A DNA stretch of 64,000 bases, taken from the NCBI GenBank assembly GCA_038043285.1, contig JBBTCJ010000022.1:15539-79538 (forward strand), in the 5' to 3' direction. The notes beneath the pieces are model-generated. The model saw only the letters and a program-made list of their open reading frames with translations. It did not search any database and was not told the DNA's origin. The position numbers were made by a program, and so were the translations under genes. This document shows, one piece after another, positions 2,974 through 39,615 of the stretch. The stretch is from Planctomycetota bacterium (GTDB lineage Bacteria > Planctomycetota > Phycisphaerae > UBA1845). The number at the start of each line of letters is the position of its first letter. The first letter of the stretch is position 1.

Positions 2974-3699
2974 ATGATCTCCTTCGTCGTCCCCGCGCAC
3001 AATGAAGAAGCGCTGCTTGCGCGCACGCTGCGAAGCATTCAAGACCCCGCCCGGCGCGTCGAGATCCCCTTCGAGCTGATCGTCGTGGACGACAACTCCA
3101 CCGATCGCACCTCCGAAATCGCGCTGCAGGCCGGTGCGCGCGTGGTAAGCGTATCCCTGCGGAAGATCTCCGCCGTCCGCAACGCCGGGGCGACGTCCGC
3201 GGCGGGAGATGTGCTCATCTTTGTCGATGCCGACACGGTTCTTCCGGAAAAGACGCTCCGCTCGGCGCTGACGGCGCTGCGGCGCGGAGCCGTTGGCGGG
3301 GGGGCCGTGGTTCGCTTCGACGAAACCTTGCCTCTTTGGTCGCGTGGAATGCTCTTCTCGTGGAACCTCACCTCGAGAATCCTGCGCTGGGCCGCCGGGT
3401 GCTTCATTTTTGTCCGCAAGGAGGCCTTCGAAGCCGCCGGCGGATTCGACGAGCGATACTTCGCGGGCGAAGAAATCGTGCTCAGCGAAGCCATGAAACG
3501 CCGCGGGCGGTTCGTCATCCTCGGCGATTCCGTCCTCACTTCCGGTCGCAAACCCAAGCTCTACGGGTTCCGCGAGACCGTTCGCATTCTGGGCGGGCTT
3601 GCCCTGCGTGGATCAAACGCCTGGCAACGCCGGGACGGGCTCGACCTCTGGTACAACCGCCGAGCCTCTCCCCAGTCCCCAGGGGAGAAGGCCGAATGA
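2974..3699 (+). CDS. Family 2 glycosyltransferase
   Basis: The N-terminus 'ISFVVPAHNEEALLARTL...LIVVDDNSTDRT...FVDADT' is a GT2 signature (DxD). Confidence 0.85.
   Translation: MISFVVPAHNEEALLARTLRSIQDPARRVEIPFELIVVDDNSTDRTSEIALQAGARVVSVSLRKISAVRNAGATSAAGDVLIFVDADTVLPEKTLRSALTALRRGAVGGGAVVRFDETLPLWSRGMLFSWNLTSRILRWAAGCFIFVRKEAFEAAGGFDERYFAGEEIVLSEAMKRRGRFVILGDSVLTSGRKPKLYGFRETVRILGGLALRGSNAWQRRDGLDLWYNRRASPQSPGEKAE
3664..3692. repeat. GC-rich palindromic element (CCTCTCCCC...GGGGAGAAGG) overlapping the GT2 3' end and stop
   Basis: The inverted repeat is gcctctcccc/ggggagaaggc. It belongs to the same family as the copies at 4367-4458, 21589-21630 and 39375-39403. Confidence 0.6.
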
Positions 3700-3983
3700 G
3701 GCGACCGTTTGTGCCACGGCCCTTGAGCAGCCGGAGCTTCTCGCAGGTCAGGTGCTCGCACCTGCCTTGACTATCCTCGCGCCGGGGTGCCGGTGCCCCA
3801 TCCTCGCGCAGCGAGCGTGGCGGACGCCTTCCATCGGCAATTGCCAACCGTCAATCCGCCTGGATGCGTCGTATCGTATGCTTCAGGATTGAACCGCGCC
3901 GGCTGTGGGCCGAGCGGCGAAACGCCTGGCCATCGCCCGATAATCGAATCGTTCCTCGGCGATCGCCGACCGGGAGGAAGATC

Positions 3984-4352
3984 ATGGAAGCCGTGGACAT
4001 CTGCCCGCTGACCAAGGAAGCCATTGAAAATCTGATCGCGTCGCGCGGGGCTTGTACGTCAGCCAACGTCAAGCCCTGTCGCCGCCGCACCGAACGCTGG
4101 GCCTTCCCCGGCACCGTCGAGCTGTGGCTGCCCGATGGAAACGGTCGGGAGTGCTACGCGCTGGCCACGTCCATCAATCTCAGCACCCGCGGCATCGGCA
4201 TTCGCGCGGACGAAGCGCTGACGCCGGGAGTGCAACTGGGCATCGCCGTCCATGAGCCGGAGGCCAGTTTCCACGGTCGGGCGGTCGTACGGCACTGCAC
4301 CGACACCGGACAGGGATACCACATCGTCGGATTGGAGTTTCTCTTCGGCTAG
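3984..4352 (+). CDS. PilZ-domain protein (putative c-di-GMP receptor)
   Basis: It carries 'CRRRTERW' (RxxxR) and 'NLSTRGIGI' (D/NxSxxG) motifs. The ATG at 3984 is preceded by a gggaggaag SD. Confidence 0.75.
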   Translation: MEAVDICPLTKEAIENLIASRGACTSANVKPCRRRTERWAFPGTVELWLPDGNGRECYALATSINLSTRGIGIRADEALTPGVQLGIAVHEPEASFHGRAVVRHCTDTGQGYHIVGLEFLFG

Positions 4353-4366
4353 GTTCGGTCTTTAAA

Positions 4367-4458
4367 CCCCCTCTCCCTGGCAGGAAGAGGGGAAGGGGTA
4401 AGGGTCGAATAGGCGTGAATCACGCTACGTCGGACCTCTCCACTCGAGGGGAGAGGGA
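4367..4458. terminator. Two tandem GC-rich hairpins between convergent genes (putative bidirectional terminator or REP-like elements)
   Basis: The hairpins are cccctctccctg/caggaagagggg at 4367-4392 and cctctcc/ggagagg at 4433-4458. They lie between the PilZ stop (4352) and the FG-GAP gene stop (4502). Confidence 0.5.
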
Positions 4459-4501: not shown

Positions 4502-6046
4502 TCAACGGAGTCGATTGCGGAACCAGACCAGTGCATCGTTGGTCAATCCGCTCAGTCCGCTGCGGTCGAAGGTGGCGATCACGTCATTGGCTCCATCCGC
4601 GTCCAGGTCGACCACCAGCAGCGCATTGACTTGAGTGCCTCCCGAAACTTCGGATGGAGAAACGCTGGGATCCGTCGTGGACGGACTTGGGCCGGGACGT
4701 CCGGGGGCGTCGTCGTCAATCACCAAAGCCGTGCCCCACTGGTCGTACAGGCTGGACGCGCCGTCCGCGTTCAAGAGTACCACGGCCCCGCCCGCGGAGG
4801 CGATGATGTCGACCTGTCCGTCGAGCGTCACGTCGCCCAATGCGATGGCCCTGGGGAATCGTCCGGTGAACTCGGCGATGGTGTAGACGCGCCACGGAAG
4901 GTTCGGCAGCGGCGCCGTGGTGGCTTCCGGCCCCGGACCCTTGAACCACTGAAGCAGCCCGCCGGTGGTCGATCGGATCAACACGTCCGCCGCTCCGTCG
5001 GCGTCGATATCCGCGACGCGGGCGACGTCCGCTTGGGTGGCCAATTGTCCCACCGCGCCCACCTGCCAGTCGCTGCTGGTGAAGTGAAAATCATCCGGGA
5101 CGTCGATCGTGGGGTTCCGGAACCATCGGATATTCATGCTTCCGGCGGCCGGAAACGTCGCCACGATATCCAGATCCCCGTCGGCGTCGATGTCCCCCAG
5201 GGCGACGTCCTTGACCGAGGTTCCGCTGGGGATCGGATTGGGAACCACGCTCACCTCCCAGCTTCGATCGCGGACCGCCGCGAACCCGCCGTTGGTGAAC
5301 TGCAAGACGGTCGCGGAGGCTTCGTCCTCAGCGCAGCCCGAGTTCCAGGCCACTACGAGGTCGGTGTCCCCGTCGCCGTCGGCGTCGCCGGCCGTCATGC
5401 CAGTGAATCCTCCCAGTTCCGGATCCCCGGCGCTTCCCGCGCCCGCGAGGCGCGAGGCCTCGATCGGCGCTTCCACCCATGCCAGCGCCTGAGCAACCTG
5501 GCCACCATCCGCAGGTCCGAGGTATACCAGAATCAAGCCCGCGAGTTCGACGGAGTCCGGCACGTCGCTGTCCAGGCAGGTCGCCCCGGCTTCCATGGTG
5601 TCTTTCAGTAACACCGCGATGTCCGGCGCGCCGTCCTGATCGAAGTCAGCGATGGTCAGCCCGGCCACGGACACCACCGGGATGTTTCCCGCCAGGGTGA
5701 CGGTTTCAAACGAAATGTTGCCGATCGTATCTCGGCGCTGCAGATGAATCTGTACCGGCTGCGACTGGTTCCATGCCGACACCAGGTCGATGAAGCCGTC
5801 GCTGTCGAGATCCGCGGCGGCGACGAACTGCGGACCGGCGGAGTCTTCGCTTTGGGGATCGACCTGGATGGCGGTGAAAAAGCTCAGCGTTCGTCCGGTT
5901 CCCAGGAAGTCGTCGGAATTGCCGCTCGGGGCGACGGAAGCCCCGTAGTTCCCCCGACATCCGATGAACAAGCCGATCGCGGAGACCGCGACGATCGCGG
6001 AACCCAGACCCCACCAACCCCACGCGTTGTGCTTGCGAACCATCAT
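4502..6046 (-). CDS. Secreted or membrane-anchored FG-GAP/VCBS-repeat (integrin-alpha-like beta-propeller) protein
   Basis: There are about seven repeats of 'DxDxDGxxDhh' (DLDSDGFIDLV, DFDQDGAPDIAV, GDADGDGDTDLVV, DIDADGDLDIV, DIDADGAADVL, VTLDGQVDII, DLDADGANDVI). The start was moved to the ATGATG at 6046, which gives a hydrophobic N-terminus 'WGWWGLGSAIVAVSAIGLFIGC'. Confidence 0.8.
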   Translation of the reverse strand: MMVRKHNAWGWWGLGSAIVAVSAIGLFIGCRGNYGASVAPSGNSDDFLGTGRTLSFFTAIQVDPQSEDSAGPQFVAAADLDSDGFIDLVSAWNQSQPVQIHLQRRDTIGNISFETVTLAGNIPVVSVAGLTIADFDQDGAPDIAVLLKDTMEAGATCLDSDVPDSVELAGLILVYLGPADGGQVAQALAWVEAPIEASRLAGAGSAGDPELGGFTGMTAGDADGDGDTDLVVAWNSGCAEDEASATVLQFTNGGFAAVRDRSWEVSVVPNPIPSGTSVKDVALGDIDADGDLDIVATFPAAGSMNIRWFRNPTIDVPDDFHFTSSDWQVGAVGQLATQADVARVADIDADGAADVLIRSTTGGLLQWFKGPGPEATTAPLPNLPWRVYTIAEFTGRFPRAIALGDVTLDGQVDIIASAGGAVVLLNADGASSLYDQWGTALVIDDDAPGRPGPSPSTTDPSVSPSEVSGGTQVNALLVVDLDADGANDVIATFDRSGLSGLTNDALVWFRNRLR

Positions 6047-6234
6047 GACGTTCCCTTTTGCTTGGAGAGGATTCGCCTCACCCTCGGCAGGCCGAAGGAC
6101 CGGCGCCCCCGAAACGCTGGACCGCGAACGACGCGCACGTCGCCCACGTCGCGCTATGGGGTATCGGCGCGGCGTCGTTTCCCCTTTTGGTATCGCCCCG
6201 GGTTTGGAAGCCTGTCCGATAACGTCGGTTGGGA

Positions 6235-7848
6235 TTACTTGACCAGCACGGCGAGCATGGTGATGTCGTCGCTCTGCTCGGCGCCGGCGGCGAACTCGGT
6301 CACCTTGCGGCGAACGTGTTTGACCAGCGCGGATGGAGTCAGTTCGGCGCCCTCGCGCAACGAGGCCTCCAACTGGGCCATGCCGAAGGGTTCCTGTTCG
6401 GGATTCATGGCCTCGATCACCCCGTCGGTGTAACAAAACAGCGTCGTCGGCGCCGACCCCAGCTCGATGGTCGCGGACAGGTATTCACCGTCCGCGGTTA
6501 CTCCGAGCGGGAAACCCGGTTCGGCGTGGTCCGGCGTCGCCGAAATGGTCTTACCCCGCAGGAACATGGGGCACCAGTGACCCGCATTGGCCAGGCAAAC
6601 GGTGCGCTGCGCCGGGTCGATGAGGGCGGCCAGGCAGGTGATGAACTTGGACTGGGCCGCGTTGCGGCTGACCAGACGGTTCCACCGGCGCATCAGGTCG
6701 CCGGGATCGTCGCAGTCGACGATGGTGACCCGGACCGCGGCCTGCAAGTTGGCCATCAGCAGGGCGGCGGCTACGCCCTCGCCGGACACGTCGGCGATGA
6801 TAATCCAGAACTTTCCGTCGGGGCGCTCGATGACGTCATAGTAGTCGCCGCTGACGCGCCGACCCGGATCGTTGAGGGCCGCAATGACGACACGGTCATT
6901 CTCCGGAAGATCATTGGGAAAGAGACTGTTCTGAATGCCCCGGGCCACGTCGAGGTCCTGGTTGAGCCGGGCAAGTTCCCGCTGCTCGTCGAGCAATCGA
7001 CCGTTGACCAGTCCGATGCTGATTTGGCGTCCGATCGCCGCCAGAAAGTCGATGTCCTCGTCGGAGTACTTTGTCGACGTGCTGGTCCGGTCTCCATAGA
7101 TGACGCCGAGGATTTCCTCGCTGTGGATCAGCGGAACGCACATCGCGGAGCGGATGCCGTGCTGCACCATGCTCACCGTCGGATCGATCTTGCCGCCCCC
7201 GTCGTCGCTGTAGATGGCCCGTTCACCGTGCTCCATCGCCCGACTGAGCAGGCTTCGGCTGATGGTCAGCTCGCCCTCGGCGCCGCGAAGGTTGCGGACG
7301 ACAGGCCAATCCACGGCCCGCTTCCCTTTCCGCCGAATGCCGATCGCGCCGCGCTCGAAGTGCAGCATCTCGAAGCAGATGTCCATGGCTTCTTCCAGCA
7401 GTTTCGGCTGATCCTGCAACGTCGTGAGTCGTTCCGAAAGCTCGTAGATGGTTTCCAGCCGTCGTTGCGAAAGGGCCAGCCGCCGATCGCGCGGGACGTA
7501 GTTTGTCGCGTGACCCGTCGGGGGCTCGTCTGCGACGATGACCGAGGTCGCCGACGCCCGATGGGCGGACCGGAAGACGCCAACCGCTGCTCCCACCGTA
7601 ATTCGATCACCGTCCCTGAGCACGGTGTGGGCGGCCGGCGTGTCGTTGACCAGCGTGCCGTTGCGGCTGCCGAGATCCTCCACGACGTACCCGCGCTCCG
7701 TCGGCGTGATGCGCGCGTGACGGCGCGAGGTGCTTGGGTCGTCGATGGGAACCTCGCATGTGGCGTCGCGGCCCAGTACGACCGGACCGGGCTTGAGCCG
7801 GTGGTGGGCCGTCCGACCGTCTGGAAGGGTGATGTAAAGTTCAGCCAT
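6235..7848 (-). CDS. FHA-GAF-PP2C(SpoIIE) serine phosphatase
   Basis: The N-terminal FHA domain is 'VVLGRDATCEVPIDDPSTSRRHARI...GSRNGTLVN'. A central GAF-like region follows. The C-terminus has 'SGDYYDV...IADVSGEGVAAALLMA...DDITMLAV', typical of PP2C/SpoIIE. Confidence 0.9.
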   Translation of the reverse strand: MAELYITLPDGRTAHHRLKPGPVVLGRDATCEVPIDDPSTSRRHARITPTERGYVVEDLGSRNGTLVNDTPAAHTVLRDGDRITVGAAVGVFRSAHRASATSVIVADEPPTGHATNYVPRDRRLALSQRRLETIYELSERLTTLQDQPKLLEEAMDICFEMLHFERGAIGIRRKGKRAVDWPVVRNLRGAEGELTISRSLLSRAMEHGERAIYSDDGGGKIDPTVSMVQHGIRSAMCVPLIHSEEILGVIYGDRTSTSTKYSDEDIDFLAAIGRQISIGLVNGRLLDEQRELARLNQDLDVARGIQNSLFPNDLPENDRVVIAALNDPGRRVSGDYYDVIERPDGKFWIIIADVSGEGVAAALLMANLQAAVRVTIVDCDDPGDLMRRWNRLVSRNAAQSKFITCLAALIDPAQRTVCLANAGHWCPMFLRGKTISATPDHAEPGFPLGVTADGEYLSATIELGSAPTTLFCYTDGVIEAMNPEQEPFGMAQLEASLREGAELTPSALVKHVRRKVTEFAAGAEQSDDITMLAVLVK

Positions 7849-19650: not shown

Positions 19651-22221
19651 CTATGGCTTCTGCGAAGGTGATTTCGGCGCCCGGGATTGCTCCTTGGCGA
19701 CAAGTTCCCTGTAATTGGCCAATCGCGTGACGAACTCATGGTTGTGCGGAAAGAGCGCCACGGCAAGTTCTTGAGACTCCACCGCCTTTTCGTTGTTGCC
19801 GCTGAGGTGATACGCCGCGGCAAGCGTGTCGAGCAGGGGTCCGTTTTTCCCCTTGGAAATTTCGAGCGCCTTTTGGGCGAACGTAAGCGCGGTGCCCACC
19901 GAGGACGGGTCTTGCGAAGCGCAGTCCAGCAGGCACTGCGCGTACCACGCCATAGCGTACTCACTAGCGTTCGGACGTTTCACAGCCTCTCGCCGAATCT
20001 CCAGGGCCTCGTCACACGCGACCCGGGCTGCCTCGTGCTGCCCCGTGCCCTGCAGCACCAGCGCCAGTTCGACAAGACTCGAACCCAACTGCAGGGAACC
20101 GCCTCCGTCTTTCTTCCGACTGCACGCAACGGCTTCATGGGCCAAGCGTTCGGCGGACTTCAAGTCACCTTTGGCGCGACAGAGTCTGGTCATGACCCTC
20201 AACGTAACAGGCGCCCATGGGTGCTCATTGCGGTACACGTTTCTCCAAAACTCGAGTGCTTCACGAAGGAGCGGTTCGGCTTTGTCGTAATCACCTTTTT
20301 CGAAAAGCAGCAGCCCATAGAAGTGCAGGGACATGGTGAAATCTAGTAGACGGTCTCCCGGCAGCCTACGGTAAATCGCACACCCTTCTTCATACAACGG
20401 TTCCGCGTTGCGGTAGTCGCCACTAAGGTACAGCGATTGAGCCAGGGTAATCAGGGCATCGGCAACGTCGTGGTGTTCCCTTCCGTGCAATTTAAGCCGG
20501 ATGTCCAGCACCTCGCGGGCGGCTTGGAGCATGGCAGCATGGTCTTGGCTAATCATGACATTACCGATGCCCATCAGACTGTTTGCAACGTCGGCATGCA
20601 CGTTCCCATACAGCTTTCGGCGAACGTCGAGCGATTCCCTGAGGAGCGCTTCAGCGCCCTTTTGATCGCCCTTGTCTTGGGTAAGGAACCATCCCAAGTG
20701 ATAAAGGCTATCCGCGCGCTCGGGGTGGTCGCTCGGGAGCTCGCGATTGCGGATTTCCAGGCCCGCGCGGAGATGTCGCTCGGCATTGTCGATTTGGCCC
20801 ATAGACTGATAGGTGGTTCCAATCGTCGTATGTAGCGCAGCCTCTACGAGTGGTTGATCCTTGAACACCGTGGAGACCTCCGCCGCCACTTTGTCGATCA
20901 TTTCTCGGACGGTGATGTTCGGGCCGGGGCCTTGGTTGGGGTCGGCCGAGCGGAGCATGGTGCTGAGGTATGCGGTCACGGCCCGAGCGGTATCGCGTTC
21001 ACGGGCTTTCTCATCTCTAGCACGTTCGGCGCGGACGTACAGCGACGTGCTGACGATGATTCCCGCGATAAGAACCACAAACACCGCCGCCAGGGAGGCG
21101 ACGACGGCCTTGTTGCGGCGAGCGAAGACGCGAAGTTGGTAAATGATGCTCGCCCGGCGGGCGAGGATGGCTTCGCCCGTCAGATAGCGATGGATGTCGT
21201 GGGCGAACTCGCCGGCTGATTGGTAGCGGCGATCGCGATCCTTCTCCAGGGCCTTGAAGACAATGGTCTCCACGTCGCCGCGCAGGGACTTGTCCACGGT
21301 GCTCAGCTTGGAGGGCTGCTGCTCACGAATCATCCGCGTCCCGTCGAAGATTTTCGAGCGGCTCACCTCGTAGGGCAGCTTGCCGGAGAGCATTTCGTAC
21401 AAAACCACGCCCAGGGCGTAGACGTCGCTGCGGGTGTCGATGTCCTGCGGGTCGCCCTCGCACTGTTCCGGACTCATGTATTGCAGCGTGCCCACGAGTT
21501 GCCCGACGTCGGTTTGCAGGGTGGTCACGGCCAAGTCCGAGTCCGTGCCGCGAGCCACCCCGAAGTCGATGATCTTCACCTGCCCGAGACCCCCGCTTCC
21601 CCCCCTGCTAAGGGGGAGTGGGGAGGGGTCGGCGGTCACCAGAACGTTCCCCGGTTTGAGGTCTCGATGGATGATGCCCTTCTGGTGGCCGTGGTGGACG
21701 GCGTCGCAGACCTGGGTGAACAGCTCCAACCGCGGCCGCATGCCGAGCTTCTTCTCGTCCGCGTACGAGGTGATGGACTTGGCGTTGGGAATGTACTCCA
21801 TGGCGAAGTAGGGCACGGCTTCGGGGACAAATGCGGCATTGCTGGGGGCGTCCGCTCGCTTTGCACTCGCGGCTCGTGCTTCGCGCTCGCGGGTCGGATC
21901 GGGAACATATGTCCCGGCTTCGTAGATCTGGGCGATGCCCGGATGACGCAAGCGGGCGAGGATCTGGGCCTCGTATTCAAAGCGCCGCAGGGCCGATTTC
22001 GACGCGATGCCCTGCTTCATGACCTTGACCGCCACGACGCGACGGGGGTTGTCCTGCGTGGCTTCGTAGACCGTACCCATTCCCCCCGAGGCGATGACCC
22101 GCTTGACGTGATACCGTCCGATCCGTTCCGGAATGCGCGAGGAAATGGGGACAGGTGGCGGAGCGACGGTTTCGGCGAGGCGCGGGTCGGGAGGGTGTTG
22201 ATCCAGACTCTGATCGGTCAT
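19651..22221 (-). CDS. Ser/Thr protein kinase with a TM segment and a long C-terminal TPR array
   Basis: Hanks motifs are 'GGMGTVYEA', 'AVKV', 'HRDLKPGNVLV', 'DFG' and 'SPEQ'. The TM segment is 'VVASLAAVFVVLIAGIIV', followed by multiple TPR-like repeats. Confidence 0.9.
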   Translation of the reverse strand: MTDQSLDQHPPDPRLAETVAPPPVPISSRIPERIGRYHVKRVIASGGMGTVYEATQDNPRRVVAVKVMKQGIASKSALRRFEYEAQILARLRHPGIAQIYEAGTYVPDPTREREARAASAKRADAPSNAAFVPEAVPYFAMEYIPNAKSITSYADEKKLGMRPRLELFTQVCDAVHHGHQKGIIHRDLKPGNVLVTADPSPLPLSRGGSGGLGQVKIIDFGVARGTDSDLAVTTLQTDVGQLVGTLQYMSPEQCEGDPQDIDTRSDVYALGVVLYEMLSGKLPYEVSRSKIFDGTRMIREQQPSKLSTVDKSLRGDVETIVFKALEKDRDRRYQSAGEFAHDIHRYLTGEAILARRASIIYQLRVFARRNKAVVASLAAVFVVLIAGIIVSTSLYVRAERARDEKARERDTARAVTAYLSTMLRSADPNQGPGPNITVREMIDKVAAEVSTVFKDQPLVEAALHTTIGTTYQSMGQIDNAERHLRAGLEIRNRELPSDHPERADSLYHLGWFLTQDKGDQKGAEALLRESLDVRRKLYGNVHADVANSLMGIGNVMISQDHAAMLQAAREVLDIRLKLHGREHHDVADALITLAQSLYLSGDYRNAEPLYEEGCAIYRRLPGDRLLDFTMSLHFYGLLLFEKGDYDKAEPLLREALEFWRNVYRNEHPWAPVTLRVMTRLCRAKGDLKSAERLAHEAVACSRKKDGGGSLQLGSSLVELALVLQGTGQHEAARVACDEALEIRREAVKRPNASEYAMAWYAQCLLDCASQDPSSVGTALTFAQKALEISKGKNGPLLDTLAAAYHLSGNNEKAVESQELAVALFPHNHEFVTRLANYRELVAKEQSRAPKSPSQKP
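21589..21630. repeat. GC-rich palindromic element inserted in-frame in the kinase catalytic domain
   Basis: The sequence ccccgcttccccccctgctaagggggagtggggaggggtc encodes 'PSPLPLSRGGSGGL', located between HRDLKPGN and DFG. Confidence 0.55.
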
Positions 22222-35993: not shown

Positions 35994-36168
35994 CGGAGCG
36001 ACCCAAAGATTGACCTGCTTCTCTGCTTGACTCCGGTTCGTAAGTTTTGTATTTGTTAGGTTTTGCGTGTTTCAAGGAAGGAGACGCGAGATGCCTGGCG
36101 ATCGAAGCAAACGGCCGATTCCGGGGGCAATGGACGTGGGCACGTTGCAGCTGAAAATCGGGGCGTGC

Positions 36169-39100
36169 ATGAGCAGTCCCGGCTCAGTGTGGCGGCAAAC
36201 TGCGTTTCTCTTGGCCCTGTTGAGCCGGTCGGCGCTTCCGTCGCCGGCGAGCGTGGAGGATGTGGATCGGCTGATGAACCTCGCCAAGGCCCATTTGGAG
36301 AATCGGGAGTCCGCCAAGGCCGTCGAAGTTCTGGCGGAGTTGTTGAAAGCCGACCCCACTTCGACAGCAGCCTTGCGTAACCTGGCGCGCGCGCACTTGA
36401 TCGCCCGGCGGTACGAGGCCGCCGTCGAGGCGCTCGCCCAAGCAGAGAAGATGGAGCCGAACTCACCGGCGACGGCGTACCTGAAGGGGTTGGCGCTGCT
36501 TCGCCTATCGCGGTTCGATCAGGCGATCGGTCCGCTCGAAACCGCCGTCCGCGGCGACCCGAATACGGGGGCGCTACGCTATCAATTGGCCTGCGCCTAC
36601 GAAGGAGTCGGCGGCGACGAGAAAGCGGGTCAACAATTTCACGAGACCCTGCGCCTGGATCCGCTCCACGCCGGCGCGTATTTCAAGCTTTCGGCACAGG
36701 CGCGGAAGGCGAATCAACCGGAAGAGGCCCAGAAGTATCAGAACGAGTTCGTCCGCTTGCGACGGTTGCTTGGTGAGGCCGCCCGGTCCGCGGAGGCCTT
36801 CGAGCAGTGCGGTCATACGCGTCCCGAGGGAGCGGCGATCCCGGCGCGGCGGGGCGATCGGGGAGCGACGAAGGCGGCGCTGGAAGTGCGTTTTGAAGAC
36901 GCGACCGAGGCCGTATTTCCAGCGGGCGTCGCGCGAGGCGCTGCCACCGCGGCTGTCGTCGAGGTTGACGCGGAAGGGGGCTGCGCGATCTTCGCCGCCG
37001 ATGGCGACGGCGGGCTGAGTGTCCTGCGGCTGACCGGGCTCGTCGCCGGCGCTCCGGGTTCGGACGAAAAAGCCGCCGGGGGGGTTTTCGAGCGGAAGGT
37101 GATGGAGAGTCCCGGCGCGCCGGGATTGAAGGATCGCGTGCGGGCGTTCGCCGCGGATTATCATGACGACGTTCCGCCCGGCGTGCGATACGACGCCAAG
37201 CTTCATGCGCTCACGGACGTTCTTCTTGTCGGGTCGGAGCGGTTGTATCTCTTGAAGCAGACGGCGCCGGGCGTATTCAGCGACGTGACCGGACAATCCG
37301 GCCTGCCCGAAGGCGGGGCGAACGCGGCCCGATGGTTGGACTACGAACACGACGGCGACGTGGACCTGATGCTCGCTGGGCACGACGGTTTGCAGTTGTG
37401 GCAGAACAACGGCGATGGTCGGTTTGAGAATGCGACGGAGCGCGTCGGCATTCAGCCCACGGGGCCGGCGGTGGACGCGGCCATCGGGGATCTCGACGGA
37501 AACGAAGCCGTCGATTTCGTGGTGGCCCGGGGGAAGGCCCCCACGCTGGTCTATCTCAATCAGCGCGCCGGCCGGTTGGCGCTGATGAGCGAGCCGCCCG
37601 GCCCTTGGCCGCCTGCAAGTCGGGCGATCATCAACGACTTCGACAACGACGGTCTTCTGGACACCGTTCTCCTTGGCCGGAAGGAGGCCACGCTGCGGTT
37701 CGGCGGCGCGGGGGAGACGATTCGGATGGACCTCGGCAGTTTAGATGCCACAGCCGTGGCACCGATAGATCACGACAACGACGGTTGGCTCGATCTCTGT
37801 TTTGCCGGCGGCTTCGAGACCCCTGCGGAGTCGCGGGGCGCCGGGATCCGACTGTTTCGGAATCCGGGGTTCCATGCATCGCCGCCGCCCGAGTGGCGCG
37901 ACGTATCGGAGCCGACGAAGCTCGCCGATCTGAACTTGCCGCCCATCCGCGACGCCATCGCCGCGGACATCGACGGCGACGGCGACTCTGATCTGTTGCT
38001 CACCGATGCGGGCGACCGACTGCACTTTCTGCGGAACGCGGGCGCTCACGCGAATGGTCAGTTGAAGATCCGCCTGCTGACCGTCAAGACAAACCCCACG
38101 GGCATCGGCACGCACATCGAACTGCGGAAAAACGATTTTCGGATCGTTCGACAGGTGAACGAGCTGCCCATCGAGATCGGAGTCGGCGGGCGAAAGACCC
38201 TCGATTCGCTTCAGACCATTTGGACGAACGGCGTGGTTGACAATCAGATCGACGCGACGGTCGGCAACGCTCCACAGACGGTCATCGAAAAAAACGTGGC
38301 CACCGGCTCGTGCCCGTTCCTCTATGCCTGGGACGGCAAACGCTTCCGGTTCGTGACCGACGTCCTGGGGAATTCTCCACTGGGGCTTTCGCTACGGCGA
38401 GACGTGATGCTGCCCGCGGATCCGGACGAGCTTGCGCTCATCGGCCCCGCCGACGGCTTCCCGCCGCAGGACGGCGCGTACACTGTTGCGGTGACCTCGG
38501 AGTTCTGCGAGGTGCTCTACCTTGATTTCGTGCGGCTTCTGGCCGTCGATCATCCTGCGGACGTGGAAGTGCATTCGACGGACAAGATCATGCCGCCGCC
38601 GTTCGCGCCTTCGGAGGTGTGGGCTTTGGGGAACCCGCGGAGGCTGATTCGCGCGGAAGGCAGCGACGGGCAAGATCGAACCGAGGCCCTCCGCGCCGCG
38701 GACGGAGTTTTTGCCCCGCCGGGCCTGGCCCTGCCGCCCCCTTTCCGCGGAATGTGCCACCATCTGTCACTGACGCTCGATTTCGGCCCGCTCGATACCG
38801 ATCGACCGCTGGTGCTGGCGCTGACCGGCTGGCTCCAGTACGGGCAGGCCAGCACCAACATCGCCTTGTCGCAGAGTTCGCGGGTCGAGGTCATTCCTCC
38901 GGTCCTGGAAGTGGAAGCGGCGGACGTCGCCTGGGTTCCCCTGGATGTCACCGTCGGCATACCGGCGGGGAAGACGAAGACGATTCTCTGCGATCTTTCC
39001 GGCAAACTTCCATCCGGCGCGCGTCGGCTCCGATTGACCAATACGTTTGAAATCCGGTGGGATCGTGCGGCTCTGTTCGAGCGGCGAACGCTTTCGCCTG

Positions 39101-39615
39101 AATGGGTCATCGAGCTTCCACTCGCCGCGGCGGACCTACGGTGGCGGGGGTTCTCGGAAATCAAATCACGCGCCGAAGGACATCCCACGACGCCGGATCA
39201 CGATGTCGTGTTTGCCAACCCGCCGTGGCGCGGCACGCTCGAGGGGTGGTGCACCCGATACGGCGACGTGCTCGAACTGGTGGCCGCACGCGATGGTCGG
39301 CTGGCCATCGTGAACGGCGGCGACTCCATGACGCTGCGATTCGCCGATCCCGGCGTGCCGGGTCGGACCCCCCCAAGCCCCCCCTTTGCAAGGGGGGAGG
39401 CTTCTCCGCCGAAGGGTTTTGTACGCACTTTCTTTTTCTACTCCGTCGGTTGGGACAAGGACGCGGACGCGAACGTGGTCGATGGGAACACCGTGGAGCC
39501 GCTACCTTCCGAGGGGCCGCCCGGGCCGGCGGATTTCGAGGCCGATCCCGCGGACTGGCGACTCCGTTACAACACGCGATGGGTTCCGAGAGACCGTTTT
39601 CATCCGTCGGAGTGA
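36169..39615 (+). CDS. TPR + FG-GAP/VCBS + ASPIC/UnbV (CRTAC1-family) protein with a large C-terminal extension
   Basis: The signal-like N-terminus starts at the ATG at 36169. It has TPR repeats, 'YEHDGDVDLML', 'DLDGNEAVDFVV', 'DIDGDGDSDLLL', and the UnbV segment 'GIGTHIELR...LDSLQTIWTNG'. Confidence 0.85.
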   Translation: MSSPGSVWRQTAFLLALLSRSALPSPASVEDVDRLMNLAKAHLENRESAKAVEVLAELLKADPTSTAALRNLARAHLIARRYEAAVEALAQAEKMEPNSPATAYLKGLALLRLSRFDQAIGPLETAVRGDPNTGALRYQLACAYEGVGGDEKAGQQFHETLRLDPLHAGAYFKLSAQARKANQPEEAQKYQNEFVRLRRLLGEAARSAEAFEQCGHTRPEGAAIPARRGDRGATKAALEVRFEDATEAVFPAGVARGAATAAVVEVDAEGGCAIFAADGDGGLSVLRLTGLVAGAPGSDEKAAGGVFERKVMESPGAPGLKDRVRAFAADYHDDVPPGVRYDAKLHALTDVLLVGSERLYLLKQTAPGVFSDVTGQSGLPEGGANAARWLDYEHDGDVDLMLAGHDGLQLWQNNGDGRFENATERVGIQPTGPAVDAAIGDLDGNEAVDFVVARGKAPTLVYLNQRAGRLALMSEPPGPWPPASRAIINDFDNDGLLDTVLLGRKEATLRFGGAGETIRMDLGSLDATAVAPIDHDNDGWLDLCFAGGFETPAESRGAGIRLFRNPGFHASPPPEWRDVSEPTKLADLNLPPIRDAIAADIDGDGDSDLLLTDAGDRLHFLRNAGAHANGQLKIRLLTVKTNPTGIGTHIELRKNDFRIVRQVNELPIEIGVGGRKTLDSLQTIWTNGVVDNQIDATVGNAPQTVIEKNVATGSCPFLYAWDGKRFRFVTDVLGNSPLGLSLRRDVMLPADPDELALIGPADGFPPQDGAYTVAVTSEFCEVLYLDFVRLLAVDHPADVEVHSTDKIMPPPFAPSEVWALGNPRRLIRAEGSDGQDRTEALRAADGVFAPPGLALPPPFRGMCHHLSLTLDFGPLDTDRPLVLALTGWLQYGQASTNIALSQSSRVEVIPPVLEVEAADVAWVPLDVTVGIPAGKTKTILCDLSGKLPSGARRLRLTNTFEIRWDRAALFERRTLSPEWVIELPLAAADLRWRGFSEIKSRAEGHPTTPDHDVVFANPPWRGTLEGWCTRYGDVLELVAARDGRLAIVNGGDSMTLRFADPGVPGRTPPSPPFARGEASPPKGFVRTFFFYSVGWDKDADANVVDGNTVEPLPSEGPPGPADFEADPADWRLRYNTRWVPRDRFHPSE
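39375..39403. repeat. GC-rich palindromic element, in-frame inside the CRTAC1-family gene
   Basis: The sequence aagccccccctt-tgc-aaggggggaggctt encodes 'PSPPFARGEASP'. Confidence 0.5.

What the first reader, a model, noticed from the sequence alone, without database searches (positions are those of the whole stretch)
21589..21630. Palindromic GC-rich element inserted in-frame between the catalytic loop and DFG of a Ser/Thr kinase
In this kinase, 26 residues separate the HRDLKPGN catalytic loop from DFG ('VLVTADPSPLPLSRGGSGGLGQVKII'). I recall roughly a dozen residues in typical Hanks kinases. The extra ~14 aa are encoded by a 42-bp imperfect palindrome (ccccgcttccccccct/agggggagtggggagggg). 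It belongs to the same family as the intergenic hairpins at 3664-3692 and 4367-4458. This looks like a REP/MITE-like element that landed in a coding sequence and was tolerated in-frame. It may alter kinase regulation, or it may have inactivated the enzyme.
Basis: partly seen in the sequence, partly recalled or inferred. Interest (0 to 1): 0.55.

Follow-up and report, generated by a model that had tools for sequence, protein, structure and literature searches.

The report
Palindromic repeat inserted in kinase loop
A 42-base palindromic DNA repeat sits in frame inside a protein kinase gene and adds a 14-residue surface loop while leaving every catalytic motif intact; it is one copy of a short element found inside genes of several bacterial phyla.

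Summary
The kinase (19651-22221, minus strand) has 26 residues between HRDLKPGN and DFG, against 12 in 117 of its 120 best homologues. The extra 14 codons are exactly 21589-21630 and form a nested imperfect palindrome.

The element reading is supported, but the family assignment is not. A profile built only from copies in other organisms hits the window at two places: this insert (E=2.3e-4) and 39366-39397 (E=8.7e-7). The second hit is a 14-codon in-frame insert in an unrelated FG-GAP protein, absent from 118 of 120 homologues. The intergenic hairpins at 3664-3692 and 4367-4458 do not match the profile.

The family has the form A-C7-N2-C7-TTGC(W)AA-G7(-N3-G7-T). Copies occur in Planctomycetota, Cyanobacteria, Nitrospirota and other phyla. 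About 62% lie inside long open frames, including ValRS, AlaRS, DnaX and GcvP, and all four stop-free frames are used.

The same insert is found in three other kinases of one subclade, yet is absent from their nearest relatives. AlphaFold places it as a coil between strands beta7 and beta8. All catalytic motifs are intact, so inactivation is unlikely.

How the element moves is unknown. No transposase was found, and the GTAG/CGTC end tag is absent.

The parts
21589..21630 (-). 42-nt in-frame copy of the nested C-run/G-run palindromic element. It encodes DPSPLPLSRGGSGG (residues 198-211), the insert in the beta7-beta8 turn.
   Evidence: Sequence and translation. 14-residue excess over 117 of 120 homologues and over PknB. 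nhmmer profile from 124 copies in other organisms hits 21587-21630 (+) at E=2.3e-4. Codon usage is in the lowest 4.5% of 14-codon windows of the gene.
21599..21618 (.). Inner hairpin of the element: CCCCCCCT / loop GCTA / AGGGGGAG on the plus strand. On the coding strand the loop region reads CTT AGC AGG, which is the 'PLS(K/R)GG' reading of the family.
   Evidence: family frames.
21589..21595 (.). Outer arm (ACCCCCG on the plus strand), which pairs with 21624-21630.
   Evidence: RNA fold, outer helix.
21624..21630 (.). Outer arm (AGGGGTC on the plus strand), which pairs with 21589-21595.
   Evidence: RNA fold, outer helix.
19651..22221 (-). Host gene: an 856-aa Hanks-type Ser/Thr kinase with a transmembrane segment and TPR repeats.
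   Evidence: ORF. Pfam Pkinase 1.8e-41, TPR_12 6.7e-46. Best solved relatives are PknB and PknA.
21646..21669 (-). Catalytic loop HRDLKPGN (residues 185-192).
   Evidence: invariant in the 70-sequence alignment.
21559..21567 (-). DFG motif (residues 219-221).
39346..39401 (+). Second copy of the same element family in the window, inside ORF 36067-39615. Net gain is 14 codons ('ADPGVPGRTPPSPPFARGEAS' against 'TGDLLPS' in the closest full homologue). The same ~55-nt unit lies in the opposite orientation at the same site in relative L003.
   Evidence: nhmmer hit 39366-39397 (-) at E=8.7e-7. Absent from 118 of 120 homologues. DNA comparison with L003 and L004. Codon usage in the lowest 0.8% of the gene.
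36067..39615 (+). Host gene of the second copy: a TPR + FG-GAP/VCBS (CRTAC1-like) protein.

Best explanation
The 42 bases at 21589-21630 are a copy of a short dispersed nested-palindromic DNA repeat. The family consensus is A-C7-N2-C7-TTGC(A/T)AA-G7, often followed by N3-5-G7-T, giving 38-44 nt when complete. The copy lies in the codons for the beta7-beta8 turn of a Hanks-type kinase.

The copy is a multiple of three bases long, and the element has no stop codon in four of its six frames. It is therefore simply translated, here in the 'PLS(K/R)GG-x-GG' frame, into a Pro-rich then Gly-rich 14-residue loop.

The loop sits at a solvent-exposed turn between two strands, and the catalytic loop, the DFG motif and all other invariant residues are untouched. 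The kinase most likely still works, and the insert has been inherited as part of the gene.

Shown: the insert is derived, it matches the repeat family, it is in frame, and it is modelled as a surface coil.

Inferred: the kinase is active. The element spreads by a hairpin- or single-strand-dependent mechanism that leaves no obvious target duplication and gives clean filled and empty sites. The closest known analogy is the IS200/IS605 or RAYT type, but no enzyme was identified.
For: 1. Derived state: 12-residue spacing in 117 of 120 homologues, and an exact 14-residue gap against PknB.

2. Family match from independent data: an nhmmer profile built from 124 copies in other organisms gives only two significant hits in 64 kb, this insert (E=2.3e-4) and 39366-39397 (E=8.7e-7).

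3. The second hit is also a net 14-codon in-frame insert in an unrelated protein, missing from 118 of 120 homologues including one 84% identical.

4. The identity is at DNA level, not protein level. The same core is read as PPLAKGG, PPLLRGG, PPLSKGG or PPLARGG depending on strand and frame. In the FG-GAP gene the unit is reverse-complemented between two relatives. Both window inserts use rare codons (AGG 5%, CCA 6%, GCA 6%, TCT 3%).

5. The repeat is dispersed. There are three copies in 6.8 kb of relative L003, one intergenic and one a ~20-residue insert absent from the L004 orthologue. Copies also occur in many phyla with non-random flanks: an outer C-run in about 100 of 127, and T at the optional position in 130 of the 134 copies listed.

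6. It is tolerated in real genes. 61 of 98 copies lie in long open frames, against 56% of random positions. Hosts include ValRS, AlaRS, DnaX and GcvP.

7. Structure: AlphaFold model with pLDDT 86.4 and pTM 0.86. The insert (model residues 174-187) lies in the coil 172-190, pLDDT 67-69, between strands 169-171 and 191-193. The fold matches PknB and PknA (TM to target 0.82-0.87). All family-invariant residues are present.

8. The same insert, at the same position and in the same orientation, is present in three further kinases (P0007; two tandem kinases on L128). The L128 copies match the family profile (E about 1e-3).
Against: - Hairpin stability is not better than composition-matched shuffles.
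- Only two copies were seen in 64 kb, so high copy number in the source genome is not shown.
- No transposase or RAYT gene is present in the window, and no target-site duplication could be defined.
- Pro (CCN) followed by Gly (GGN) codons produce C-run/G-run palindromes automatically. Across the four kinases the Gly identities are conserved while their third codon positions vary, so part of the present palindrome could be held by protein-level selection.
- Kinase activity was not tested.
- The search pattern would give about 70 chance hits in 596 Gb under uniform base composition. The cross-phylum family therefore rests on the conserved flanks, not on the number of hits.
Confidence: 0.8

Rival explanations
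1. Ordinary loop expansion: a Pro/Gly-rich linker arose by local slippage or duplication within the kinase gene. The palindrome is a by-product of CCN (Pro) codons followed by GGN (Gly) codons.
For: Pro-then-Gly peptides necessarily give C-run/G-run DNA. The hairpin is not better than shuffles. The same kinase has another lineage-specific insert in the beta4-beta5 loop that does look like local duplication (tandem 19-20-nt repeats).
Against: The profile from unrelated genomes matches at E=2.3e-4, including the loop and the spacer architecture. A second copy lies in an unrelated gene in the same window. The same DNA is read in four frames and on both strands elsewhere. The insert uses rare codons. 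It appears as a single 42-nt unit with clean empty sites.
Confidence: 0.07
2. Exapted functional loop: the element-derived insert has been kept because it does something for the kinase, for example as a docking or regulatory loop or a phosphorylation site. It would then be more than a neutral passenger.
For: The insert is retained in four kinases that are only 71-80% identical to one another in the kinase domain, apart from the L128 tandem pair at 96%. The segment (K/R)GG-x-GG-(L/V)G is conserved while Gly third codon positions differ (GGG/GGA/GGT/GGC). Both tandem paralogues on L128 keep it.
Against: K-G-G-x-G-G is simply the translation of the element consensus in that frame, so the similarity may reflect shared origin or repeated insertion. 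The left half is not conserved. The nearest relatives do without it. Model confidence in the loop is low.
Confidence: 0.2
3. The insertion inactivated the kinase, leaving a pseudokinase or decaying gene.
For: The insert lies between the catalytic loop and DFG, close in sequence to the active site.
Against: The 856-codon frame is intact with coding-type GC3 of 0.74. The VAVK Lys, alphaC Glu, HRD, N192, DFG and SPE are all present and invariant in the family. Strands beta7 and beta8 are preserved in the model. The same family of elements sits in essential genes such as ValRS, AlaRS and DnaX.
Confidence: 0.05
4. Same family as the intergenic hairpins at 3664-3692 and 4367-4458, that is, one REP-like family used both as terminators and as this insert.
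For: All are C-rich arm / G-rich arm hairpins. 4367-4402 has a loosely similar two-run layout.
Against: The family profile gives no hit there even at E<=100. Their arms are CCTCTCC/GGAGAGG, not C7/G7. They lack the TTGCWAA loop. The multiple alignment shows only 42% column identity.
Confidence: 0.08
5. Assembly or sequencing artefact, such as a chimeric snap-back or homopolymer error.
For: The element has homopolymer runs and a palindrome, both error-prone.
Against: The length is exactly 42 nt and in frame. Homologous inserts occur in independent metagenomes (L001, L128) with ordinary substitutional divergence. Copies also occur in isolate and complete cyanobacterial genomes.
Confidence: 0.02

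Closest known systems
Rickettsia palindromic elements (RPE; Ogata et al. 2000, as summarised in PMC10969869 and PMC3184786)
   Same: Palindromic repeats are inserted in frame inside many unrelated protein-coding genes, including housekeeping ones. They add a peptide segment at positions compatible with the fold. No transposase is encoded within the element.
   Different: RPEs are about 105-150 bp, confined to Rickettsia, and end in CGTC (PMC3733652). The element here is 38-44 nt (42 in the kinase). It has a C7/G7 nested hairpin with a TTGCWAA loop and no CGTC end. Copies with the same core occur in Planctomycetota, Cyanobacteria, Nitrospirota, Nitrospinota and others.
REP elements, including intragenic REPs (Di Nocera et al. 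2013, PMC3733652), and REPINs with RAYT transposases (PMC3116915)
   Same: 20-40-nt GC-rich imperfect palindromes that are dispersed. Some copies lie inside genes. They are thought to move through single-strand hairpin recognition.
   Different: REPs are defined by a GTAG or CGTC tag at one end, are mostly extragenic (downstream of genes), and are usually species-specific in sequence. Here no such tag is present, copies are not depleted from coding DNA (62% against 56% random), and the core is shared across phyla. No RAYT was found nearby.
Other repeats fused internally to protein genes (BRE of Betaproteobacteria; RUP, BOX and SPRITE of pneumococcus; reviewed in PMC3184786)
   Same: Small non-coding repeats are found translated inside open reading frames.
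   Different: Those are longer MITE-like units (about 100 bp or more) limited to one lineage.
   Same: Very small (21-27 nt) apparently mobile repeats with hairpin potential, seen as filled and empty sites between relatives, with no encoded enzyme.
   Different: They are reported only in Nostocaceae (PMC5861425). Their sequences could not be compared. The present family is abundant in Oscillatoriales (Microcoleus) and in non-cyanobacterial phyla.
Hanks-type kinases PknB and PknA of M. tuberculosis (the host protein's closest solved relatives)
   Same: Same fold and catalytic motifs.
   Different: PknB has a tight beta7-beta8 turn (ISAT-NAVKV). The window kinase has 14 extra residues there, plus a second insert of about 26 residues in the beta4-beta5 loop.

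Membership tests
C7/G7 nested-palindrome repeat with TTGCWAA loop (family defined here) | Significant match to a sequence profile built from copies in other organisms | tested here: met
   nhmmer hit at 21587-21630 (+), E=2.3e-4, 17.1 bits. The only other hit in the window is 39366-39397, E=8.7e-7.
C7/G7 nested-palindrome repeat with TTGCWAA loop (family defined here) | Architecture: outer C-run, spacer, inner C-run, TTGCWAA-type loop, inner G-run, spacer, outer G-run; 38-44 nt | tested here: met
   Plus strand reads ACCCCC-GCTT-CCCCCCC-TGCTAA-GGGGGAG-T-GGGGAGGGGTC, 42 nt. Full copies elsewhere are 34-44 nt, mostly 38-44. The copy is degenerate in both G-runs.
REP (repetitive extragenic palindrome) / REPIN | 20-40-nt GC-rich imperfect palindrome | tested here: met
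   17-nt arms at 71% complementarity and a nested fold.
REP (repetitive extragenic palindrome) / REPIN | GTAG or CGTC tetranucleotide tag at one end (PMC3733652) | tested here: not met
   The ends are GAC.../...GTC in the window copy and mostly A-C7.../...G7-T in the family. No GTAG or CGTC is present.
REP (repetitive extragenic palindrome) / REPIN | Predominantly extragenic, downstream of genes | tested here: not met
   Both window copies are intragenic. 62% of family copies lie in long open frames, against 56% of random positions.
REP (repetitive extragenic palindrome) / REPIN | Associated RAYT (Y1 transposase) gene flanked by the repeat | not testable with these tools
   No transposase domain was found in the 30 window ORFs scanned. 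The rest of the genome is not available.
REP (repetitive extragenic palindrome) / REPIN | High copy number within one genome | tested here: inconclusive
   Two copies in 64 kb here and three in 6.8 kb of relative L003. No whole genome was available.
Rickettsia palindromic elements (RPE) | In-frame insertion of a palindromic repeat into functional protein genes | tested here: met
Rickettsia palindromic elements (RPE) | Length about 105-150 bp and sequence families specific to Rickettsia | tested here: not met
   42 nt. The hosts are Planctomycetota, Cyanobacteria and others.
MITE | Terminal inverted repeats of 15-30 bp, target-site duplication, size 70-300 bp or more | tested here: not met
   The element is 42 nt in total. 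No direct repeat flanks the insert when filled and empty sites are compared. The junction is ambiguous by about 1-3 nt.
Hanks-type (eukaryotic-like) Ser/Thr protein kinase (host gene) | Pkinase domain above the curated threshold with catalytic Lys, HRD, Asn, DFG and (A/S)PE | tested here: met
   PF00069, 142.7 bits against a cut-off of 31.7. Fold match to PknB and PknA.
Cyanobacterial SDR elements (Elhai 2008) | Sequence identity to SDR1-8 consensus sequences | not testable with these tools
   The paper is not held. PMC5861425 states that SDRs are confined to Nostocaceae.

The most novel reading that the evidence does not exclude
The kinase insert would be one copy of an undescribed, cross-phylum family of ~40-nt nested C7/G7 palindromic elements. 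These enter protein-coding genes about as often as any other DNA and are translated in any of four open frames. They sit in essential genes (ValRS, AlaRS, DnaX, GcvP) in Cyanobacteria, Nitrospirota and Planctomycetota. They show recurrent or reversible occupation of the same site: a patchy filled/empty pattern among kinases, and opposite orientations at one site in the FG-GAP gene. This would amount to a general, RPE-like generator of protein surface loops far outside Rickettsia, moved by a still unknown, precise, duplication-free mechanism.
Probability: 0.35. Interest if true: 0.8.

Novelty: new variant of a known kind. Interest (0 to 1): 0.6.

Why it matters
In-frame palindromic repeats inside working genes are a textbook oddity of Rickettsia and a minor note for REPs. 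Here the same behaviour appears for a much smaller element with no encoded protein, whose core sequence is shared by distant phyla. It is found in a signalling kinase and also in aminoacyl-tRNA synthetases and replication proteins.

If the family is truly mobile, it is a widespread source of new surface loops in bacterial proteins. It would also be a handle on an unidentified DNA-insertion mechanism that is precise and leaves no target duplication.

For annotation and structure prediction it explains recurrent 'PPL(A/S)KGG-x-GG' low-complexity loops. For this particular kinase the practical message is modest. The insert is a tolerated loop between strands beta7 and beta8, not a disruption.

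Tried and rejected
1. Thermodynamic significance of the hairpin by shuffling. This is uninformative, because C/G-rich shuffles fold equally well.

2. Simple pattern counts in the window. There are only two C5...G5 loci, which is too few for statistics.

3. Multiple alignment of all C-arm/G-arm hairpins in the window. Column identity was only 42% and gave no support for one family. One coordinate I supplied for the P0007 row was wrong.

4. A third protein search with a 58-residue query centred on the insert. It returned only 30 candidates, all short fragments, none with the insert.

5. Exact look-up of the window kinase in the assembly index. It is not on record, so the source organism is not identified beyond 'Phycisphaerae-like Planctomycetota', judged from the names of best hits.

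6. Rfam. Only chance miRNA-like hairpin hits appeared, with no family match.

7. Literature searches for the core DNA strings and peptides. Nothing relevant was found. The Elhai 2008 paper is not held.

8. blastn of a full copy against plasmids. There was no match, probably because of the low-complexity filter.

9. Viral contigs. One hit only, so there is no sign of phage carriage.

10. Synteny between the window kinase and P0001, P0007 or P0024. None exists beyond the kinase domain, so strict orthology could not be used to date the insertion.

11. Looking for a conserved target motif or target duplication at the junctions. The result is ambiguous. Some full copies sit inside longer palindromes (L102, L116), but no rule emerged.
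Full report
**1. The observation**

The ORF at 19651-22221 (minus strand) encodes an 856-residue protein with an N-terminal Pkinase domain (PF00069, 1.8e-41), a hydrophobic segment and TPR repeats. HRDLKPGN is encoded at 21669-21646 and DFG at 21567-21559. The 26 residues between them are VLVTADPSPLPLSRGGSGGLGQVKII.

The 42 bases 21589-21630 encode DPSPLPLSRGGSGG. On the plus strand they read ACCCCCGCTTCCCCCCCTGCTAAGGGGGAGTGGGGAGGGGTC. The repeat finder reports 17-nt arms (21590-21606 and 21611-21627) at 71% complementarity around a 4-nt loop. The RNA folds into two nested helices at -27.7 kcal/mol.

The hairpin is not statistically better than composition-matched shuffles (z=-0.59 as DNA; z=-1.5 as RNA). 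C5...G5 hairpins occur at only two places in the window. Significance has to come from comparison with other sequences.

**2. The loop is derived**

Among the 120 best homologues of the kinase domain (mostly Phycisphaerae and Planctomycetota metagenome proteins), the spacing between the catalytic-loop Asn and DFG is 12 residues in 117, 17 in two and 25 in one. The alignment to M. tuberculosis PknB shows a single clean 14-residue gap opposite dpsplplsrggsgg.

**3. The DNA belongs to a repeat family, but not the one proposed**

A second C-run/loop/G-run site at 39378-39397 lies inside ORF 36067-39615, a TPR + FG-GAP/VCBS protein. An alignment of 120 homologues of its C-terminal part shows a net 14-residue insert there too. 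The window reads ADPGVPGRTPPSPPFARGEAS, against TGDLLPS in P0121, which is 84% identical. The insert is absent from 118 of the 120.

The one other carrier, P0138 (88% identical), has a different peptide, APPLAKGGLGEVGPDAPGFP. Its DNA is the reverse complement of the window's over about 55 nt, with the same 63-nt distance between conserved flanks.

The 6.8-kb contig of that relative (L003) holds three copies of the core. One is in this gene and one is intergenic. The third is inside a UnbV_ASPIC gene, where it is part of a ~20-residue insert absent from the orthologue in L004.

These were in Microcoleus and other Oscillatoriales, Planctomycetota/Phycisphaerae, Nitrospirota, Nitrospinota, Armatimonadota and others. 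Under uniform base composition this pattern would give roughly 70 chance hits in 596 Gb, so the number of hits proves nothing.

The flanks do carry the argument. The optional base is T in 130 of the 134 copies listed. A second C-run precedes the core in about 100 of 127 copies, with A before it in 72. Two further G follow in 110-118. Sixteen full copies show C-run/spacer/core/spacer/G-run units of 34-44 nt, often with complementary spacers.

I built an nhmmer profile from the 124 copies outside the window's lineage. In the 64-kb window it finds exactly two significant hits: 39366-39397 (E=8.7e-7) and 21587-21630 (E=2.3e-4). It finds nothing, even at E<=100, at 3664-3692 or 4367-4458. It finds none in the insert-free relatives L002, L004 and L125.

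So the kinase insert is a slightly degenerate member of this family. They are CCTCTCC/GGAGAGG-type hairpins at gene ends.

**4. DNA-level, not protein-level, identity**

The core has stop-free frames on both strands, and all four are used in different host genes: PPLAKGG and PPLLRGG on one strand, PPLSKGG and PPLARGG/PPFARGG on the other. The kinase uses the PLS(K/R)GG frame and the FG-GAP gene uses PPFARG.

Both window inserts are rich in rare codons (AGG 5%, CCA 6%, GCA 6%, GCT 6%, TCT 3% of their synonymous sets). They fall in the lowest 4.5% and 0.8% of equal-length windows of their genes.

**5. Tolerance in coding DNA is general**

Of 98 family copies with enough flanking sequence, 61 (62%) lie in a stop-free frame of at least 250 codons with at least 60 codons on each side. 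The figure for random positions in the same loci is 56%.

Pfam confirms bona fide hosts:
- glycine dehydrogenase GcvP
- DnaX, which also carries an intein
- valyl-tRNA synthetase, with the element inside the catalytic domain
- alanyl-tRNA synthetase, in a Phycisphaerae genome
- a NACHT-HEAT protein
- a BcrA/BadF-type activase

In ValRS of two related Thermodesulfovibrionia genomes the element sits at the same site but is read in different frames.

**6. History of the kinase insert**

P0007 carries a 13-residue version at the same position, SPLDSSPTKGGSGG. Its DNA aligns with the window's over the full length but has lost the C-runs. The profile no longer detects it.

A metagenome scan for the right junction (G-run followed by the conserved GQVKIIDFG codons) found one contig, L128. 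It has two tandem kinases, both carrying DPTAAPL(A/T)KGGQGG, encoded by GACCCAACGGCCGCCCCCCTT(G/A)CCAAGGGGGGCCAAGGGGGGTT. Both copies match the profile at E about 1e-3. All four inserts are colinear.

In a neighbour-joining tree these kinases form one clade of nine with five insert-free proteins. Each carrier's nearest relative lacks the insert. The query is 82% identical to P0001. P0007 is 90% identical to P0024 and shares the gene order PilZ-MazG-DUF8042-PIG-L-kinase with it.

The empty sites carry the family-wide consensus VDS(T)GQVK. The pattern therefore needs one of three things: repeated insertion at one position, precise loss, or gene conversion among the many paralogous kinases. I could not decide between these. 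The window kinase shares no flanking synteny, and only ~30% C-terminal similarity, with the others.

**7. Effect on the protein**

An AlphaFold2 model of residues 25-375, built with 69 homologues, has mean pLDDT 86.4 and pTM 0.86. Strands at model residues 169-171 (VLV) and 191-193 (KII) bracket a coil at 172-190. That coil contains the insert (174-187) and has pLDDT 67-69. The model superposes on PknB and PknA with TM-scores of 0.82-0.87 to target.

All residues invariant across the 70-sequence alignment are present in the window protein. These include K of VAVK, the alphaC Glu, H/R/D/K/N of the catalytic loop, DFG and SPE. The gene has coding-type GC3 and an intact frame.

The most likely reading is an active kinase with an enlarged, flexible, solvent-exposed beta7-beta8 turn. 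Activity itself is inferred, not shown.

Across the four carriers the right half, (K/R)GG-x-GG-(L/V)G, is conserved while Gly third positions vary. This is compatible with some protein-level constraint. It is also what the element consensus encodes in that frame, so exaptation remains a minority possibility.

**8. Mechanism of spread**

The following is shown:
- Filled and empty sites exist between close relatives in two other genes, the FG-GAP gene and the UnbV_ASPIC gene.
- The same pattern occurs in the kinase clade.
- One site is occupied in opposite orientations.
- No obvious target duplication is present.
- Some full copies are embedded in longer palindromes.

The inference, by analogy with established knowledge of IS200/IS605 and REP/RAYT systems, is a single-strand, hairpin-recognising, duplication-free insertion or excision process. 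No transposase gene is present in the window, the GTAG/CGTC tag that defines REP superfamilies is absent, and only one copy was found in 2.9 million viral contigs. The agent is unknown.

**9. Comparison with what is known**

Repeats translated inside genes are known. Examples are RPEs in Rickettsia, intragenic REPs, BRE and pneumococcal repeats (PMC10969869, PMC3733652, PMC3184786).

This family works like an RPE but fails RPE membership on size, sequence and host. It is REP-sized but fails REP membership on the end tag and on extragenic location. Cyanobacterial SDRs are the nearest in size, but they are reported only from Nostocaceae (PMC5861425) and their sequences could not be checked.

No Rfam family and no paper in the searchable library contains the core sequence or its peptides. 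That is absence of evidence only.

**10. Verdict**

The finding is real and the main idea is right. The specific family link is wrong, and inactivation is unlikely. As a single kinase insert it is a new member of a known kind. The family behind it, short, shared across phyla and not excluded from coding DNA, looks like a new variant and deserves a proper census.

Noticed in passing
window 21823-21921 (minus strand; kinase residues ~101-133): The same kinase has a second lineage-specific insert, in the beta4-beta5 loop (TYVPDPTREREARAASAKRADAPSNAAFVPE). There are 39 residues where most homologues have 13. The insert contains a tandem 19-20-nt duplication (21858-21876 and 21878-21896) and is bracketed by 15-nt direct repeats (21809-21823 and 21908-21922). 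AlphaFold predicts a helix there (model residues 85-97, pLDDT ~84). It looks like local duplication, not the palindromic element.
   Followed up: partly
window 39346-39401 versus L003 ~531-585: The ~55-nt element unit in the FG-GAP gene is in opposite orientation in two relatives (87% nt identity). It sits at the same site with identical total length, and both versions stay in frame. A third relative (L004) has the empty site. In-situ inversion and two independent insertions could not be distinguished.
   Followed up: partly
window 3665-3690, 4367-4393, 4434-4457: These are CCTCTCC/GGAGAGG-type hairpins at gene ends. The first overlaps the last codons and stop of the GT2 glycosyltransferase gene 2974-3699 (RNA -21.2 kcal/mol, z=-3.95). 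The other two lie between the convergent PilZ (3864-4352) and FG-GAP (4502-6436) genes. They are probably terminator-like or a separate small repeat type, and they are not matched by the C7/G7 profile.
   Followed up: partly
L003 1597-4227 (minus strand), around 1841-1885: A third in-frame copy occurs in this lineage: PPQALLPPLQRGGPGGSVQMG inside a UnbV_ASPIC/FG-GAP protein, absent from the ~93% identical orthologue in L004. The same protein pair differs by two other small indels.
   Followed up: yes
L053 ~3259-3302 and L081 ~2712-2755 (ValRS genes of two Thermodesulfovibrionia MAGs): The element sits at the same site in valyl-tRNA synthetase (residue ~215, inside the catalytic domain) but is read in different frames (PPLAKGG against PPLLRGG). 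Differences in spacer length compensate.
   Followed up: no
L128 507-3605 and 4253 to the locus end: Two tandem, 96% identical kinase paralogues carry the insert. They differ by one base in the loop (TTGCCAA against TTACCAA). This is evidence that the insert is copied along with gene duplication.
   Followed up: partly
L017 3-2909: A Microcoleus DnaX open frame carries both an intein-splicing domain and the palindromic element (at residue ~672). The same element position recurs in three other Microcoleus genomes (L058, L067, L100).
   Followed up: no
L036 3170-3591: Three copies of the core lie at 201-203-nt spacing with identical flanks, so the element is embedded in a longer tandem repeat unit in a Microcoleus genome.
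   Followed up: no
window as a whole: This is a housekeeping chromosomal region at 64% GC: an RseP-like M50 protease, IspG (GcpE), RuvC, IlvC, an RpoD-like sigma-70, DnaJ, LarC, transhydrogenase and an arginase-family protein. There are three FG-GAP proteins and two PilZ proteins. No mobile-element genes were seen in the 30 ORFs scanned.
   Followed up: partly
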